Shown here: in pieces, positions 115 to 5,481 of the stretch
How positions within the stretch are numbered: position 1 is the first letter of the stretch
How the letters are laid out: each line of letters opens with the position of its first letter
Virus record (IMG/VR): IMGVR_UViG_3300014625_000039
Reading direction: 5' to 3' (one strand)
DNA length: 6,245 nucleotides
Source of the DNA: a virus
Lineage: Duplodnaviria; Heunggongvirae; Uroviricota; Caudoviricetes
The notes under the pieces: model-generated
Told to the model about the DNA's origin: nothing
The model's database searches: none
What the model saw: the letters and a program-made list of their open reading frames with translations, nothing else
Program-made: the position numbers and the translations under genes

Positions 115-190
115 GCCGATATAGCTCAGTTGGTAGAGCAGCGCATTCGTAATGCGAAGGTCGTAGGTTCGACTCCTATTATCGGCACCA
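115..190 (+). tRNA. thrW: tRNA-Thr, anticodon CGU
   Basis: Folded by hand into a 76-nt cloverleaf: acceptor stem GCCGATA(115-121)/TATCGGC(180-186), D-stem GCTC/GAGC, anticodon loop TTCGTAA with CGT at 148-150, T-loop TTCGACT, discriminator A and encoded CCA (188-190). Anticodon CGU reads ACG (Thr). The symbol is by analogy to enterobacterial thrW, a known phage integration target. Confidence 0.9.
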
Positions 191-204
191 TTTAAATCAA
201 GTAG

Positions 205-1368
205 TTACACATCATTAGTACCTTCCTTATTTTTTGACTGGGACAAATTTGGGACCGATGGGTTCAGGATCGAGTCTATTTGCCGTGCGTGTTCTGTAAG
301 GTGATTAGGTGCAAGGTGAGCATATCGACGAACCATTTCGATAGACTCCCAGCCTCCCATTTCCTGTAACACTGACAACGGGACTCCGGCTTGAACCAGC
401 CAACTTGCCCAGGTGTGTCTCAAGTCGTGAAATCTGAAATCATCAATACCAGCCCGTCTCAGCGCCGCTTTCCAGGCTGTGTTTGCGTCATACCGCATCT
501 TCCTTACTGTTGGCGCTTTCGTTCCGTCTGGTTTGGTACAGCTTTCCTTGTACACAAATACCCAACGGTGATGATTCCCGATTTGTTTTTTCAAAACGCG
601 ACATGCAGTATCATTCAGCGCAACGCCGATTGCGCGGTTTGATTTACTCTCTTCCGGGTTTATCCATGCCACCCGGCGCTGCATATCTATTTGTTGCCAT
701 TCAAGGTTGATGATGTTCGAGCGTCTTAAGCCTGTTGCCAGTGCAAATTCAACAACAGACTTTAATGGCTCTGGACATTCATCAATCAGCCTTTGTGCTT
801 CATGGGGCTCCAGCCAGCGGATCCGTTTATTCTTTGGTTGAGGCACTTTAATAATTGGTGCCTTATCCAGCATTTTCCATTCACGCTCTGCGGCTCTTAG
901 TAGGGCCTTTATAAATGAAAGATGCGTAGCCTTCGTTGCAACGGACGCTGGTTTTGGCGTGTATTCTGGAACAGGTTTCCCTTTTTTTCTGCATGCTTCT
1001 GCCCTGAGTTTCCAGTTTTCCTCATGACGCCGGTTCGTCATTTTCTGCATTGCTGAATAAATTTTTGATTCAGTAATGTCTCTTAGTTGCATTCCTGCGA
1101 AATGTTGAAGCCAGAATCCGATCCGGCTTTTGTCATCGTCCAGTGATTTTTTATGTGCTTTCTCTTCAAGCCACCTGACACACGCTTCCTCGAACGTTAT
1201 ATCAGGTATTTCACCAAGTTTGCTGACCCGCCATGCTTCAGCCTTTAGCTTGTCATGGAGTTCTGTCGCCTGCCTTTTGTCCTTTGTTCCAAGAGACTGT
1301 TTAAATCTTTTACCGTTCGGCAATGTGAAACTGGCGTACCATATTTCACCTCTGCGGAAGAGTGACAT
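205..1368 (-). CDS. int: Site-specific tyrosine integrase, P22 Int-like
   Basis: 387-aa ORF with ATG at 1368-1366 preceded by AGGA. The C-terminal catalytic region [39 protein letters not shown] carries the R..H..R..Y tyrosine-recombinase signature. The N-terminus [24 protein letters not shown] closely matches my recollection of phage P22 Int, which also integrates at thrW. Confidence 0.93.
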
Positions 1369-1595
1369 TTTCTTTCCTCTGTTATGCCATCACCCGCGCT
1401 CACCTGGACAGTATGCAGCGGAGACTGAAGAGCCGCAATGCAGGCTTGTCGTGTTGTGAGGTAAGGAGATTTATTCTTAGTGGGATCTTTGCGTGTTGCC
1501 TGAAGACGCCCTGTGCGTATCCAGTTAATGGCAGTCGGTCTGGATATCTTGAGAAAATGACAGGCCTCATCGAGTGTGAGGCTGTATGGCTCCAT
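1245..1595 (-). CDS. xis: Excisionase (Xis), P22-like, with helix-turn-helix
   Basis: Start taken at the internal Met (ATG 1595-1593) preceded by GAGGTG, not at the 144-aa maximal ORF start. The 116-aa product begins [31 protein letters not shown], a Xis/AlpA-type DNA-binding motif. Its 3-prime end overlaps the int 5-prime end by 124 nt in another frame. Confidence 0.8.
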
Positions 1596-1900
1596 TATTT
1601 CACCTCTTGCTGTGACATTGTTGAAAAATGGATACCAGCTCGTTGCTGCCAGACGATCCAACCGAGAGTCATATCCCATGCCATGTATTCGTTATCGCCG
1701 TTTTTTGCTCTCCGACGATCTACTAAGTCACCGAAACGCTTTTCCATGAATAATTCATAAGCTTCGCGTTCATCTGGTTCTACTTCCAGCGATAGGAGTG
1801 CGATTTCATAAGCACGGCGCTCAATATCGTCTCGCACGTCAAGGCTGCTGATACGCTCTTTAATTTCTTTAATCAGTTCTTTGTCGGTAAAAGTGATCAT
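1595..1900 (-). CDS. Hypothetical small acidic phage protein (101 aa), function unknown
   Basis: Complete ORF; its stop overlaps the xis start as TAATG, and its own start overlaps the upstream gene stop in the same way. GGAGG lies about 10 nt upstream of the ATG. Rich in Asp/Glu; no motif I can name. Confidence 0.6.
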   Translation of the reverse strand: MITFTDKELIKEIKERISSLDVRDDIERRAYEIALLSLEVEPDEREAYELFMEKRFGDLVDRRRAKNGDNEYMAWDMTLGWIVWQQRAGIHFSTMSQQEVK

Positions 1901-2262
1901 TATGCTCCAGCCTCCGGTGCTTTTGGCATTATTGCCCAGTGAGTGATATTGACGTTTTCAAGGTCCCCGACCTGAAATGTCCACTGCCATTCTCCGGTTT
2001 CTTTTTGTCCCCAGGTGTACCAGAGAGAACGCCAGCCAATTAGCCAGCCTTCTCCGTTAGCATCGAATAACAAAACACTTTCATTTGCTGGTGGCAGTTC
2101 AGTTGACACTGGTATTACTTTGTTTTCCTGTGCTGCACATTTAGCTTCAAGCGCATCGAATTTACGCACCAGGTATTCAGCATCTGTTTCATTCACTTTC
2201 AGATCTCGCGGTACACATCTCCCACGAAGAAACCCTTCCATTTCGAAAACATTCATGCGCAT
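1900..2262 (-). CDS. DUF551-like phage protein (120 aa)
   Basis: The C-terminal half (GEGWLIGWRSLWYTWGQKETGEWQWTFQVGDLENVNITHWAIMPKAPE) shows the Trp-rich pattern ending in THW..P..PE that I associate with the phage DUF551 family. TAATG-coupled to the downstream gene. Start codon uncertain (ATG at 2262 or 2256, no clear SD). Confidence 0.65.
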   Translation of the reverse strand: MRMNVFEMEGFLRGRCVPRDLKVNETDAEYLVRKFDALEAKCAAQENKVIPVSTELPPANESVLLFDANGEGWLIGWRSLWYTWGQKETGEWQWTFQVGDLENVNITHWAIMPKAPEAGA

Positions 2263-2287
2263 TTGCGTATCAAAGTGGCTGTTGCGG

Positions 2288-2560
2288 ATGATGATTGTGC
2301 TTCACGTCATGTGCCTGCTGCCGCTGCTGACCGGTTGCGGAAGTACGCGAACAGTTTACGTACCGATTCCGGCGGTACCGTTGCCAGCAAGCCTGACTAC
2401 TGAAACTCCCCAGCCAGTCATTCCCGAGCCGCTGACCTATGGGGCCAGTCTGGATCTGAATGTGAGCCTGCTTTCGGCGTTGGGACAATGCAATATTGAC
2501 AAAGCGGGGATTCGAAGTATCGAGATGCGCCGTAACGCTTTGCTGGCAGCAGTCAAATAG
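2288..2560 (+). CDS. Putative outer-membrane lipoprotein, proline-rich, Rz1/o-spanin-like (about 90 aa)
   Basis: N-terminus MMIVLHVMCLLPLLTGC is a hydrophobic signal peptide ending in the lipobox LLTG|C, followed by a Pro-rich segment (VYVPIPAVPLPASLTTETPQPVIPEP) and a later Cys. An alternative start at ATG 2255 would add a basic n-region (MRICVSKWLLR). No clear SD at either start. Confidence 0.45.
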   Translation: MMIVLHVMCLLPLLTGCGSTRTVYVPIPAVPLPASLTTETPQPVIPEPLTYGASLDLNVSLLSALGQCNIDKAGIRSIEMRRNALLAAVK

Positions 2561-2586: not shown

Positions 2587-2937
2587 ATGCCCCCTCGAAC
2601 TCCAAAAGCCTGCCGCGTTCGCGGCTGCCGTAATACCACGACAGACCCGTCAGGCTACTGCGAAAGCCACAAAAGCGAAGGCTGGAAGCAATACAAGTCA
2701 GGACAATCCCGTCATCAGCGCGGTTATGGTTCTAAGTGGGATGTTATCCGTGTGCGTGTGCTGCAACGTGACAAAGGCCTGTGTCAGTTATGTCTGCGTG
2801 CTGGTGTGGCGCGTGAAGCGAAAACCGTTGATCACATCATCCCTAAAGCACATGGCGGCACTGATGCCGACAGTAATCTGCAGAGTCTGTGCTGGCCGTG
2901 TCATAAGGCGAAGACGGCCCGTGAACGGCTTAAGTGA
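2587..2937 (+). CDS. HNH endonuclease (terminase-associated type)
   Basis: 116-aa ORF with AGGA 8 nt upstream of the ATG. Cys pairs (CRVRGC, CQLC, CWPC) and the HNH core DHIIPKAHGG...N...H are present. Its position immediately upstream of terS/terL is typical of HK97-like packaging modules. Confidence 0.85.
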   Translation: MPPRTPKACRVRGCRNTTTDPSGYCESHKSEGWKQYKSGQSRHQRGYGSKWDVIRVRVLQRDKGLCQLCLRAGVAREAKTVDHIIPKAHGGTDADSNLQSLCWPCHKAKTARERLK

Positions 2938-3062
2938 TAATAACTCTCAACTGTCTGAGGGGAGGGGCGGGTCAAATCTCTGTGACCTGACGTCTTCCGG
3001 ACTGCCCGCCCCATCGTTTTTTTATACCCGCGAAAAATGAAATTTAACCAGGAGTGCCGCAT
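2938..3062. promoter_or_regulatory. Intergenic region between HNH and terS: candidate cos / packaging-initiation site
   Basis: 125-bp non-coding gap exactly where HK97-like phages place cos (between the HNH gene and terS). It contains the G-rich run GAGGGGAGGGGCGGG and an 8-bp inverted repeat GGGGCGGG (2964-2971) / CCCGCCCC (3005-3012). Assignment is by position and composition only. Confidence 0.35.
2964..3023 (+). terminator. Possible intrinsic terminator-like hairpin with T-run (alternative reading of the cos-region repeat)
   Basis: GC stem GGGGCGGG/CCCGCCCC followed 4 nt later by TTTTTTT (3017-3023). The 33-nt loop is long for a classical terminator, so this is weak. Confidence 0.3.
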
Positions 3063-3557
3063 ATGGCTGGAACGGCGGGGCGTTCCGGGCGTCGCCCCAA
3101 GCCAACGGCGCGCAAGGCGCTGGCCGGAAACCCCGGCAAGCGAGCCCTGAACAAAGATGAACCTGTTTTTACGCCCATCAAAGGCGTTGAGCCACCGGAG
3201 TGGTTCGCAGAAGAAAATCTCCCTCTCGCCACGATCATGTGGCAACTGACAACCAAAGAACTCTGCGGTCAGGGCCTGTTGTGCGTGACTGACCTCGCGG
3301 TGCTTGAGCGGTGGTGCGTGGCCTATGAGTTCTGGCGACGTGCCGTGAAAAATATTGCCATACAGGGCAACACCATCACCGGTGCAATGGGCGGCAGGGT
3401 CAAAAATCCGGAGCTGACCGCCAAAAAAGAACAGGAGTCCGAGATGAGCAGCACGGGGGCAATGCTCGGACTCGACCCCAGCAGCCGCCAGCGTCTGATT
3501 GGCCTGGCGGGGCAGAAGAAAGCCACTAACCCGTTTCTGAAAATCATCGAGTCATGA
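3063..3557 (+). CDS. terS: Terminase small subunit (P27/HK97-like family)
   Basis: Start chosen at ATG 3063, with AGGAG 8 nt upstream; the ORF track's upstream start at 3054 is GTG. The basic N-terminus ([29 protein letters not shown]) and overall length fit P27-type small terminases. Its stop overlaps the terL start (ATGA at 3554-3557). Confidence 0.8.
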
Positions 3558-5287
3558 GCCGGAAATCTTACCCCAACGTAAATGCTGCCAATCAGTATGC
3601 CCGTGATGTTGTGCGCGGAAAGATTGTGGCCTGCCAGTTTGTGATTCAGGCCTGCCAGCGCCATCTTGATGACCTGATGGCGGAAAAAAGTAAGTCGTTT
3701 CGTTACCGCTTCGACAAGGACCTGGCTGAACGGGCCGCCAAATTTATTCAGCTGTTGCCGCACACCAAGGGTGAGTGGGCATTCAAGAGGATGCCCATCA
3801 CGCTGGAGCCGTGGCAGCTATTTGTGGTCTGCTGTGCGTTTGGCTGGGTCAATAAAGGGTCCCGGCTGCGCCGCTTCCGGGAGGTGTATACCGAAATCCC
3901 CCGTAAGAACGGCAAATCGGCAATCTCTGCCGGTGTTGCCCTGTATTGTTTTGCCTGTGATAACGAGTTTGGCGCGGAAGTGTATTCCGGTGCCACGACA
4001 GAGAAACAGGCGTGGGAAGTCTTTCGCCCGGCGCGACTGATGTGTAAACGCACACCCATGCTGACGGAAGCGTTCGGGATTGAGGTTAACGCCTCAAACA
4101 TGAATCGTCCGGAGGATGGCGCGCGGTTTGAACCGCTGATCGGTAACCCCGGTGATGGTTCATCACCCCACTGTGCGGTGGTGGATGAATATCACGAGCA
4201 CGCCACCGATGCGCTTTACACCACGATGCTTACCGGGATGGGGGCGCGACGTCAGCCACTGATGTGGGCCATTACTACTGCCGGGTACAACATTGAGGGG
4301 CCGTGCTACGACAAGCGACGGGAAGTTATCGAGATGCTCAACGGGTCGGTACCCAACGATGAACTGTTCGGGATCATCTATACCGTTGACGAAGGCGATG
4401 ACTGGACCGACCCGCAGGTGCTGGAAAAAGCTAACCCGAATATTGGCGTGTCGGTTTATCGCGAATTTTTGTTAAGTCAGCAGCAGCGTGCGAAAAATAA
4501 CGCCCGTCTGGCAAACGTCTTTAAAACAAAACACCTCAATATCTGGGTGTCGGCGCGTTCGGCGTATTTCAACCTGGTGAGCTGGCAGAGCTGCGAGGAT
4601 AAATCACTGACCCTTGAGCAGTTCGAGGGGCAGCCGTGCATTCTGGCCTTTGACCTGGCGCGTAAACTGGATATGAACAGCATGGCGCGACTTTATACCC
4701 GCGAGATTGACGGTAAAACGCATTACTACAGTGTGGCCCCGCGTTTCTGGGTACCGTATGACACGGTGTACAGCGTCGAGAAAAATGAAGATCTACGGAC
4801 AGCCGAACGCTTTCAGAAATGGGTGGAAATGGGCGTTCTGACCGTTACCGATGGTGCGGAAGTGGATTATCGCTACATCCTCGAGGAGGCTAAAGCGGCG
4901 AACAAAATCAGCCCGGTCAGTGAGTCACCCATCGACCCCTTCGGGGCGACCGGGCTGTCACATGACCTTGCTGATGAAGACCTGAACCCCATCACTATCA
5001 TTCAGAACTACACCAACATGTCCGATCCGATGAAAGAGCTGGAAGCGGCAATTGAATCGGGGCGCTTTCATCATGATGGCAATCCCATCATGACCTGGTG
5101 TATCGGCAACGTGGTCGGCAAAACCATTCCGGGTAACGATGATGTGGTGAAGCCCGTCAAAGAGCAGGCGGAAAACAAAATCGATGGTGCAGTTGCGCTG
5201 ATTATGGCGGTTGGCAGAGCCATGCTGTACGAGAAAGAAGACACGCTGTCTGACCACATTGAGTCCTATGGGATCCGCTCGCTTTAA
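3554..5287 (+). CDS. terL: Terminase large subunit (HK97-like Terminase_1 family)
   Basis: 577-aa ORF with a deviant Walker A (EIPRKNGKS) in the N-terminal ATPase region and an acidic-residue-rich C-terminal nuclease-like region. Translationally coupled to terS. Confidence 0.93.
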
Positions 5288-5298
5288 CTGAGGTAATT

Positions 5299-5481
5299 AT
5301 GATCATGCTGATTCTCGCGCCTCTGGTGGGCGTGCTGGGGGCGCTTTTGCTGGCGTATGGTGCCTGGCTGATTTATCCCCCGGCGGGGTTTGTTGTTGCC
5401 GGGGCGTTGTGCCTGTTCTGGTCGTGGCTGGTGGCGCGATATCTCGACCGTACACAGTCGTCTGTCGGCGGAGGTAAATAG
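5299..5481 (+). CDS. Small membrane protein, two predicted transmembrane helices (60 aa); function unknown
   Basis: GAGG lies 5 nt upstream of ATG 5299. Sequence [60 protein letters not shown] has two hydrophobic segments separated by a YPP turn and a polar C-terminal tail. Its stop TAG overlaps the GTG start of the portal gene. Confidence 0.5.

What the first reader, a model, noticed from the sequence alone, without database searches (positions are those of the whole stretch)
2938..3062. Candidate cos site with a GC inverted repeat between HNH and terS
In HK97-like phages the cohesive-end site lies between the HNH gene and terS, and HNH assists terminase cleavage. This gap has a G-rich tract (GAGGGGAGGGGCGGG) and the inverted repeat GGGGCGGG/CCCGCCCC around a 33-bp core, then a T-run. 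Defining it would show whether the element can be packaged by its own terminase and which phages could help or be hijacked.
Basis: inference. Interest (0 to 1): 0.55.

Follow-up and report, generated by a model that had tools for sequence, protein, structure and literature searches.

The report
Known SfV-type phage cos site
The gap between the HNH and small-terminase genes holds the already characterised cohesive-end (cos) packaging site of the SfV/SfI/phiP27 phage group, sitting here in a prophage that has lost 13.6 kb. The inverted repeat that drew attention is incidental.

Summary
In detail: G-rich tract 2957-2971, perfect 8-bp inverted repeat 2964-2971/3005-3012, T7 run 3017-3023. The cos reading is right, but this site is already known. 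Window 2957-3074 matches Shigella phage SfI at every base except 3013. SfI virion ends were sequenced and lack exactly TGCCCGCCCC, which is window 3003-3012. phiP27 has an annotated cos-site at the homologous position.

Alignments anchored on the cut show three conserved blocks:
- a G-rich box plus TCAAATC at -56..-35 (2957-2978), present in the same register in HK97;
- GAC plus the 10-nt end (3000-3012);
- a T-run plus ATACCCGCGAAAAA at +5..+25, resembling the mapped HK97 TerS site.

The cut falls inside the right arm of the repeat, not in the 33-bp core. The repeat is not unusual by chance (P about 0.08), shows no covariation, and decays in relatives. A terminator reading fails on geometry and conservation.

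In phages with a similar HNH but a divergent TerS, the left half is kept and the right half is replaced, so the site is modular.

The host element is an SfV/SfIV-like prophage at thrW. It lacks its early, replication and lysis genes and is not a cf-PICI. Interest is low. The only mildly new point is the upstream G-box shared with HK97.

The parts
2587..2937 (+). HNH endonuclease gene, the accessory nuclease of HK97/P27-type terminases
   Evidence: Pfam HNH E=5e-16. 40% identical to HK97 gp74 over 65 aa, E=6e-11; 78% to phiP27 HNH; 111/116 identical to SfI HNH.
2957..2978 (+). Upstream conserved cos block: G-rich box GAGGGGAGGGGCGGG plus TCAAATC, at -56..-35 from the top-strand cut. It sits where lambda has cosQ; its binding partner is unknown (inferred HNH and/or TerL).
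   Evidence: Lines up without gaps, in the same register, in SfV-type, phiP27-type, Klebsiella, Pseudomonas-labelled and HK97 cos regions. In HK97 it lies about 260 nt after the HNH stop yet at the same distance from the cut. It is kept in phages whose TerS and right cos half differ.
2964..2971 (+). Left arm of the 8-bp inverted repeat (GGGGCGGG); part of the G-box
   Evidence: No covariation with the right arm; the central pair is broken in 12 of 23 sequences.
2979..2999 (+). Spacer of variable sequence and nearly constant length between the G-box and the cut region
   Evidence: Varies among otherwise near-identical loci. The distance from TCAAATC to the cut is 34 nt in the window, HK97, the Klebsiella phage and vB_EcoM-606R7, and 33 nt in L204.
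3000..3002 (+). GAC immediately left of the cohesive end; the inferred bottom-strand nick lies between 3002 and 3003
   Evidence: Invariant in all 23 aligned sequences, including HK97. Nick position is inferred from the 10-nt 3' overhang geometry of HK97 (PMC9410871; PMC11331095).
3003..3012 (+). 10-nt cohesive-end sequence TGCCCGCCCC (the cosN equivalent); top-strand cut between 3012 and 3013. It includes the right arm of the repeat (3005-3012).
   Evidence: This is exactly the 10 nt missing from sequenced SfI virion termini (PMC3636060). The SfI record ends with this string and restarts at the base equivalent to 3013. phiP27 is annotated cos-site CGCCCGCCCC at the homologous position. Unique in the window.
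3013..3023 (+). +1..+11: ATCG plus the T7 run; first bases of the packaged left end
   Evidence: A run of T at about +7..+11 is conserved in P27-type sites and, in weaker form, in HK97. It is absent from the unrelated right half of vB_EcoM-606R7.
3024..3047 (+). Predicted TerS recognition site (cosB-like): ATACCCGCGAAAAA (+12..+25) followed by TGAAATTTAA
3063..3557 (+). Small terminase TerS (P27 family); ribosome-binding site GGAG at 3051-3054
   Evidence: PF05119 E=4e-20. 161/164 identical to SfI TerS. The start matches the SfV/SfI annotation.
3554..5287 (+). Large terminase TerL, HK97 type
   Evidence: PF03354 and PF20441. 26% identity over 460 aa to HK97 gp2, E=1e-28.

Best explanation
Window 2957-3047 is the cos (cohesive-end) packaging site of an SfV/SfI/SfII/SfIV-type temperate phage. 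This is the P27 small-terminase branch of HK97-like, HNH-assisted cos packaging.

Proposed mechanism. TerS binds the right half, predicted at about +12..+25 (ATACCCGCGAAAAA, 3024-3037). TerL, assisted by the HNH protein, then makes staggered nicks: top strand between 3012 and 3013, bottom strand between 3002 and 3003. This leaves the 10-nt single-stranded end TGCCCGCCCC, most likely 3'-protruding as in HK97. DNA is packaged rightwards, terS first. The G-rich box plus TCAAATC at 2957-2978 is therefore the last conserved element to enter the head. It sits where lambda has cosQ and probably helps the nuclease recognise or terminate at cos.

Shown: sequence identity with an experimentally mapped cos; the position of the 10-nt end; the conservation pattern.
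Inferred: overhang polarity in this group; the TerS site; the role of the G-box.

The 8-bp inverted repeat is a by-product of a G-rich box and a C-rich end lying on the same strand.

In this window the site belongs to a prophage at thrW that has lost 13.6 kb: early, immunity, replication, Q, holin, endolysin and the 5' part of Rz. The site is therefore intact but probably idle unless a related helper phage supplies expression and replication.
For: - Window 2957-3074 matches the SfI junction except at 3013. SfI virion ends were sequenced directly and lack exactly TGCCCGCCCC relative to the prophage (PMC3636060). SfIV authors report the same cos in SfI, SfII, SfIV and SfV (PMC3851460).
- phiP27 has an annotated cos-site, CGCCCGCCCC, at the homologous position.
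- HK97 physical ends, joined, give ...GGGGGGGGATCAAATC-(34 nt)-...GAC CGCCGCCAAA|GTTTG..., the same register as the window.
- HNH and TerL are homologous to HK97 gp74 and gp2.
- The HK97 TerS site is mapped at +15..+29 and requires a specific C:G pair plus an A-tract (PMC11331095). The window has ACCCG plus an A5 tract at +14..+25.
- Natural module swap: vB_EcoM-606R7 has an HNH 75% identical to the window's, and keeps the G-box, the 34-nt spacing and a C-rich end. Its TerS is only 24% identical and everything right of the cut is unrelated.
- The 125-nt gap is 100% identical in complete prophages that carry Q, holin, endolysin, head and tail genes.
Against: - No physical ends were determined for this element or strain.
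- The polarity of the overhang in the SfV group is not stated in the SfI paper. I infer 3' from the reported 'gap' in run-off sequencing and from HK97.
- The G-box could be conserved simply by linkage to HNH, although its different distance from HNH in HK97 argues against that.
- The element has lost its late promoter region and replication genes, so function in situ is doubtful.
Confidence: 0.9

Rival explanations
1. The GC stem plus T-run is an intrinsic transcription terminator ending the HNH/lysis transcript, and nothing more.
For: An 8-bp all-G/C stem is followed 4 nt later by T7. The MFE fold of the gap draws this helix.
Against: - The loop is 33 nt and the spacer to the T-run is 4 nt, outside terminator geometry. 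The terminator scan did not call it.
- Fold energy is ordinary (z=-0.82). There is no Rfam match.
- Across 23 related sequences the helix shows no covariation: 449-499 of 500 shuffles score at least as high, and the central pair is broken in 12 of 23.
- The T-run stays at a fixed distance from the cut even where the stem is lost.
- In the full-length relatives the order is Q, holin, endolysin, Rz, HNH, terS. I infer that late transcription must cross this gap to reach the terminase and head genes.
Confidence: 0.04
2. The inverted repeat is itself the functional core of cos, for example a symmetric binding site for a dimeric nuclease or a cruciform, with cutting inside the 33-bp spacer.
For: A perfect 8-bp repeat sits in the right gap. 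Lambda cosN has partial two-fold symmetry (general knowledge).
Against: - The mapped end (3003-3012) lies in the right arm, and the repeat's centre (about 2988) is about 20 bp from the centre of the nick pair.
- The repeat is expected by chance in about 8% of shuffles.
- Left-arm variants (GGGGGAGG, GGGGGTGG) and right-arm variants (CCCGCCTC, CCCGCTTG, CCCCCCTA, CGCCAAA) occur without compensation.
- The spacer is the most variable part of the site.
Confidence: 0.03
3. The site is a functional cos of a capsid-forming satellite (cf-PICI) that packages itself with its own HNH-TerS-TerL and steals tails from a helper.
For: An integrase next to a tRNA, a short left arm, then HNH-terS-terL-portal with no early phage genes in between looks superficially like a compact island.
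Against: - Both arms are 98-99% identical to SfV/SfIV. They are joined at a 2-bp microhomology that removes SfV 22717-36348.
- There is no replication or regulation module between int and HNH. An Rz1/LysC gene and a truncated Rz remain.
- Proteobacterial cf-PICIs place capsid genes before hnh-terS-terL (10.1101/2022.09.08.507074), and their proteins are under 40% similar to phage proteins.
- The identical HNH and gap occur in full prophages with sheath, tube and tape-measure genes. ET474 has a different deletion of the same prophage with tail genes present.
Confidence: 0.03

Closest known systems
cos site of Shigella serotype-converting phages SfI, SfV, SfII and SfIV
   Same: Window 2957-3074 matches SfI at 117 of 118 positions and includes the experimentally defined 10-nt end TGCCCGCCCC. 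TerS is 98% and HNH 96% identical. The att site is the same (thrW), as are int and xis.
   Different: Base 3013 is A, as in SfV, versus G in SfI. The first 19 nt after the HNH stop belong to a different mosaic type from SfI. The prophage here carries a 13.6-kb internal deletion.
cos site of Stx2e phage phiP27 (annotated misc_feature, NC_003356 21806-21815)
   Same: Same position between HNH and terS. The G-box GGGGAGGGGCGGGTCAAATC is identical. The end is GAC + CGCCCGCCCC. The right half has ACACCCGCGAAA at the same offset.
   Different: First base of the end (C versus T). The spacer and +1..+11 differ. TerS is 48% and HNH 78% identical.
HK97 cos (10-nt 3' overhang; TerS site +15..+29; cleavage stimulated by HNH gp74)
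   Different: The end sequence is CGCCGCCAAA. The ACCCG motif is 4 nt further from the cut. TerS has no detectable sequence similarity. The G-box is about 260 nt from the HNH stop, against 20 nt here.
Lambda cos (cosQ-cosN-cosB)
   Same: The same three-part logic: a terminal element upstream of the nicks, a nick site, and a TerS-binding region next to the small terminase gene. Packaging is rightward, starting from the terminase side.
   Different: Lambda ends are 12-nt 5' overhangs. It uses no HNH partner, a different TerS family (Nu1) and IHF sites. No IHF consensus was found here. The cosQ analogy for the G-box is positional only.

Membership tests
SfV/P27-type (HK97-like, HNH-assisted) cos site | Lies between the HNH gene and terS at the junction of the late lysis and packaging modules | tested here: met
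   HNH 2587-2937, TerS 3063-3557. The same order is seen in SfV, SfI, phiP27 and full prophages.
SfV/P27-type (HK97-like, HNH-assisted) cos site | Contains the experimentally mapped 10-nt cohesive-end sequence in its conserved context | tested here: met
   TGCCCGCCCC at 3003-3012, unique in the window, equals the SfI cos (PMC3636060). The surrounding 118 nt match SfI except one base.
SfV/P27-type (HK97-like, HNH-assisted) cos site | Cognate terminase: P27-family TerS, HK97-type TerL, gp74-like HNH, all intact | tested here: met
   Pfam hits. TerL is 577 aa, the same length as in SfV. Homology to HK97 gp2 and gp74. TerS is 161/164 identical to SfI.
SfV/P27-type (HK97-like, HNH-assisted) cos site | Virion DNA of this element has unique ends at this site with a 10-nt 3' overhang | not testable with these tools
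   This needs virion DNA. Polarity is inferred from HK97 and from the 'gap' seen in SfI run-off sequencing.
Intrinsic (Rho-independent) terminator | GC-rich stem with a short loop (3-8 nt), immediately followed by a U-run, with the pairing conserved | tested here: not met
   The loop is 33 nt and the spacer 4 nt. Not called by the scan. z=-0.82. No covariation.
cf-PICI (capsid-forming phage-inducible chromosomal island) | Integrase plus its own replication and regulation modules upstream of the packaging genes | tested here: not met
   Between int and HNH there are only xis, two small SfV early-left ORFs, a truncated Rz and Rz1. The junction is a deletion of SfV 22717-36348.
cf-PICI (capsid-forming phage-inducible chromosomal island) | Size 10-18 kb, with no tail module and no lysis genes (criteria in 10.1101/2025.02.11.637232) | tested here: inconclusive
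   The window ends inside the portal gene, so size and tail content are unseen. LysC/Rz1 is present. The nearest relatives and the ET474 variant carry full myovirus tail genes.
Headful (pac) packaging site | Pac-type terminase and permuted, terminally redundant ends | tested here: not met
   TerL is HK97-type with an adjacent HNH. The SfI paper concludes a cos mechanism, not headful. Permutation itself cannot be tested here.

The most novel reading that the evidence does not exclude
The G-rich box plus TCAAATC, locked at -56..-35 from the cut, may be a distinct and so far undescribed sub-site of HK97-like cos sites. It would be read by the conserved HNH/TerL nuclease pair, cosQ-like, rather than by TerS. 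The cos site would then be built from two exchangeable halves: the left half travels with HNH, the right half with TerS, and recombination joints fall at the cohesive end itself. The HK97 papers I could read map only the downstream TerS site.
Probability: 0.4. Interest if true: 0.4.

Novelty: already known. Interest (0 to 1): 0.2.

Why it matters
Practically, it gives the exact cohesive end (TGCCCGCCCC, 3003-3012) and packaging direction for this prophage family. That helps when setting genome starts, interpreting read-start pile-ups, and judging which helpers could act on the site: any SfV/SfI/SfII/SfIV-type terminase.

It also shows that the element is a crippled serotype-converting-type prophage, not a satellite, so self-packaging is unlikely.

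The wider comparison gives a testable map of a P27-type cos: a G-box, GAC plus a 10-nt end, and a TerS site. It also points to an upstream element shared with HK97 that could be examined in the existing HK97 in vitro system.

Tried and rejected
- RNA structure or terminator: the fold is not unusual, the terminator scan is negative in the gap, there is no Rfam family, and there is no covariation.
- Inverted repeat as signal: the chance test gives P about 0.08.
- IHF site: no match of 8/9 or better to WATCAANNNNTTR. The only 7/9 match lies in the variable post-HNH segment.
- Source genome: an exact search for the deletion junction in species-representative genomes found nothing. None of 5,426 complete E. 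coli genomes has the junction.
- The first viral-contig scan with TerS returned only relatives of 99% identity or more. Diversity came from phiP27- and HK97-seeded scans and from GenBank phages.
- Literature: Kala 2014 and Allison 2002 are not held. Searching for the end sequences as text gave only irrelevant hits. The Serratia phage paper was irrelevant.
- cf-PICI reading: rejected on gene content and on near-identity to SfV.

Full report
**1. What is in the window**

The 6,245-bp window contains the following features:

| Coordinates | Strand | Feature |
|---|---|---|
| 115-190 | + | tRNA-Thr(CGT) |
| 205-1368 | - | tyrosine integrase |
| 1245-1595 | - | HTH excisionase-like ORF |
| 1595-1900 | - | small ORF |
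| 1900-2262 | - | small ORF, DUF551 |
| 2288-2560 | + | Rz1-like LysC lipoprotein gene |
| 2587-2937 | + | HNH endonuclease |
| 2938-3062 | | the 125-nt gap in question |
| 3063-3557 | + | P27-family small terminase |
| 3554-5287 | + | HK97-type large terminase |
| 5299-5481 | + | 60-aa membrane ORF |
| 5481 onward | + | start of a portal gene |

**2. Check of the observation**

- GAGGGGAGGGGCGGG at 2957-2971.
- GGGGCGGG at 2964-2971 and CCCGCCCC at 3005-3012, a perfect repeat separated by 33 nt.
- A T7 run at 3017-3023.

The repeat on its own is not remarkable. A perfect repeat of 8 bp or more appears in 7.9% of dinucleotide-preserving shuffles of the gap, and in 22 of 245 other 125-nt windows of the same sequence. 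The RNA fold of the gap is no more stable than shuffles (z = -0.82).

**3. Identity of the site**

A blastn search of GenBank phages shows that HNH-gap-terS is 93-98% identical to Shigella serotype-converting phages SfV, SfI, SfII and SfIV and their E. coli and Salmonella relatives.

The SfI authors sequenced the ends of virion DNA directly. Relative to the prophage they found a 10-nt gap, 5'-TGCCCGCCCC-3', and concluded cos packaging rather than headful packaging (PMC3636060). The SfI GenBank record ends with exactly this string and restarts at the next base.

The window carries TGCCCGCCCC once, at 3003-3012. Window 2957-3074 matches the joined SfI ends at every base except 3013, which is A here and in SfV and G in SfI. 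The SfIV paper states that SfI, SfII, SfIV and SfV share this cos (PMC3851460).

Phage phiP27, the namesake of the TerS family, has an annotated cos-site, CGCCCGCCCC, at the homologous position.

The gap is 100% identical in 8 of the 10 full-length prophages retrieved (2-3 spacer differences in the other two). All 10 encode the identical HNH protein and carry Q, holin, endolysin, head and contractile-tail genes.

So the cos interpretation is correct, and the site is already known.

**4. Anatomy from comparison**

I anchored sequences on the cut and compared the following:
- SfV-type variants: 36 distinct gaps among 80 viral contigs.
- phiP27-type loci, with TerS down to 53% identity to phiP27.
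- A Klebsiella phage and a Pseudomonas-labelled phage.
- HK97, whose GenBank ends are the physical ends.

Three blocks line up with almost no gaps.

(i) A G-rich box followed by (T/A)CAAATC at about -56..-35 (window 2957-2978). HK97 reads GGGCAGGGGGGGGATCAAATC. Exactly 34 nt separate TCAAATC from the cut in both HK97 and the window. In HK97 the box lies about 260 nt beyond the HNH stop, against 20 nt here, so it tracks the cut and not the HNH gene.

(ii) An invariant GAC followed by a C-rich 10-mer:

| Source | 10-nt end |
|---|---|
| window | TGCCCGCCCC |
| phiP27 | CGCCCGCCCC |
| other P27-type loci | GGCCCGCTTG, CGCCCCCCTA, CGCCGCCTCA |
| HK97 | CGCCGCCAAA |

(iii) Right of the cut, a short T-run at about +7..+11, then A(C/T)(A/G)C(C/A)CGCGAAA at +12..+23, followed by an A/T-rich stretch up to the terS ribosome-binding site.

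The spacer 2979-2999 is the most variable part.

**5. How it most likely works**

For HK97 the following is established:
- The ends are 10-nt 3' overhangs.
- The HNH protein gp74 stimulates TerL cleavage at cos.
- TerS binds a 15-bp site at +15..+29. Binding depends on one specific C:G pair at +21 and on an adjacent A-tract whose orientation does not matter (PMC9410871; PMC11331095).

The HK97 site is CTAACCCGATTTTTT. The window has ATACCCGCGAAAAA at +12..+25, which is the same ACCCG-plus-A-tract signature, 4 nt closer to the cut.

The window's HNH is homologous to gp74 (40% over 65 aa, E=6e-11). TerL is homologous to gp2 (26% over 460 aa, E=1e-28).

A natural module swap supports the assignment. 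E. coli phages vB_EcoM-606R7 and vB_EcoS-733R4 have an HNH 75% identical to the window's. They keep GGGGAGGGGCGGGTCAAATC, the 34-nt spacing and a C-rich end (TAC CGCCGCCTGA). Their TerS is only 24% identical, and all sequence right of the predicted cut is unrelated. The left half therefore travels with HNH, and possibly TerL, while the right half travels with TerS.

My model is as follows:
- TerS binds 3024-3037.
- TerL plus HNH nick between 3012|3013 (top strand) and 3002|3003 (bottom strand).
- Packaging runs rightwards, from terS onwards.
- The G-box acts from the cosQ-like position on the last-packaged end.

The position of the end is shown by identity to an experimentally mapped site. The 3' polarity in this group, the TerS site and the G-box role are inferences.

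**6. Rivals**

The inverted repeat as a functional stem or symmetric site is rejected:
- On 23 diverse sequences the 8 pairs show no covariation. 449-499 of 500 shuffles score at least as high, and the central C:G pair is broken in 12 of 23.
- Arm variants occur on either side without compensation.
- The cut lies in the right arm, about 20 bp from the repeat's centre.
- The residual complementarity follows simply from a G-rich box and a C-rich end on one strand.

A terminator is rejected on geometry (33-nt loop, 4-nt spacer; not called), on the lack of structural conservation, and because the T-run keeps its distance from the cut where the stem is lost. No Rfam family matches. No IHF consensus is present.

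**7. What the element is**

Window 145-2269 is 99% identical to SfV 20592-22716 and to SfIV. This stretch covers the att core, int, xis and two early-left ORFs. From 2270 onward the window continues at SfV 36349, inside Rz. The two parts are joined at a TA microhomology.

About 13.6 kb of an SfV-type genome is therefore missing: the rest of the early-left operon, immunity, replication, Q, holin, endolysin and the 5' part of Rz.

None of 5,426 complete E. coli genomes has this junction. Strain ET474 has a different, IS1-associated deletion in the same thrW prophage and retains the tail genes.

This is a decayed prophage, not a cf-PICI. It lacks replication and regulation modules. Its gene order differs from proteobacterial cf-PICIs. 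It is nearly identical to bona fide phages, whereas cf-PICI proteins are reported to be under 40% similar to phage proteins (10.1101/2022.09.08.507074; criteria).

The cos site and terminase genes are intact. The native late promoter region and the replication functions are gone, so autonomous packaging is unlikely. A superinfecting SfV-type phage should recognise the site.

**8. Novelty and score**

The finding re-identifies a published cos site, so novelty is 'already known' and interest is low.

Two points go slightly beyond what I could find in the papers available:
- The G-box/TCAAATC element is shared, in register, between HK97-type and P27-type cos sites.
- The site has a two-module structure with recombination joints at the cohesive end itself. 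For example, L110 has an SfV-type spacer and end joined to a phiP27-type right half exactly at the cut.

Both are testable in the existing HK97 in vitro system.

Noticed in passing
window 2262-2290 (junction at 2268-2269): This is an internal deletion junction of the prophage. Sequence up to 2269 equals SfV up to 22716, and sequence from 2270 equals SfV from 36349, joined at a TA microhomology. About 13.6 kb is missing: early-left genes, immunity, replication, Q, holin, endolysin and the 5' part of Rz. Rz1/LysC (2288-2560) is left intact but orphaned. None of 5,426 complete E. coli genomes has this junction.
   Followed up: yes
window 115-190 and 145-190: tRNA-Thr(CGT), i.e. thrW, is the integration site. 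[quoted passage not shown]
   Followed up: partly
L110 (IMGVR_UViG_2896595138_000008) and L030, cos region: These are mosaic joints at cos. L110 has a phiP27-type HNH end and G-box, an SfV-type spacer and end (TGCCCGCCCC), and then a phiP27-type right half starting exactly at the cut. L030 combines a phiP27-type left flank with an SfV-type right half. This suggests recombination at or through the cohesive ends.
   Followed up: partly
L206/L207 (Escherichia phages vB_EcoS-733R4, vB_EcoM-606R7), HNH-terS gap: The HNH is 75% identical to the window's, and the G-box and its 34-nt spacing to a C-rich end (CGCCGCCTGA) are conserved. TerS is only 24% identical and the DNA right of the predicted cut is completely different. 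This is a natural swap of the TerS-side half of cos.
   Followed up: partly
L113-L192 (HK97-type loci), about 45-55 nt upstream of the cut: The HK97-type G-run before ATCAAATC varies in length (G7 to G11) among 54 sequence variants, while the rest of the cos region is almost invariant. This could be homopolymer slippage or sequencing noise in a conserved element.
   Followed up: no
[not shown]
   Followed up: partly
L004 (E. coli ET474, NZ_CP100954) 18205-23392: The same thrW prophage in ET474 carries an independent IS1-associated deletion of its early region, and keeps the head and myovirus tail genes. This prophage family appears prone to losing its early region while keeping its structural genes.
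   Followed up: no
window 5299-5481: A 60-aa hydrophobic ORF (annotated YmfR in relatives) lies between terL and the portal gene. It has no Pfam hit and is conserved in the full prophages. In some relatives a 53-aa ORF sits at this position instead.
   Followed up: no
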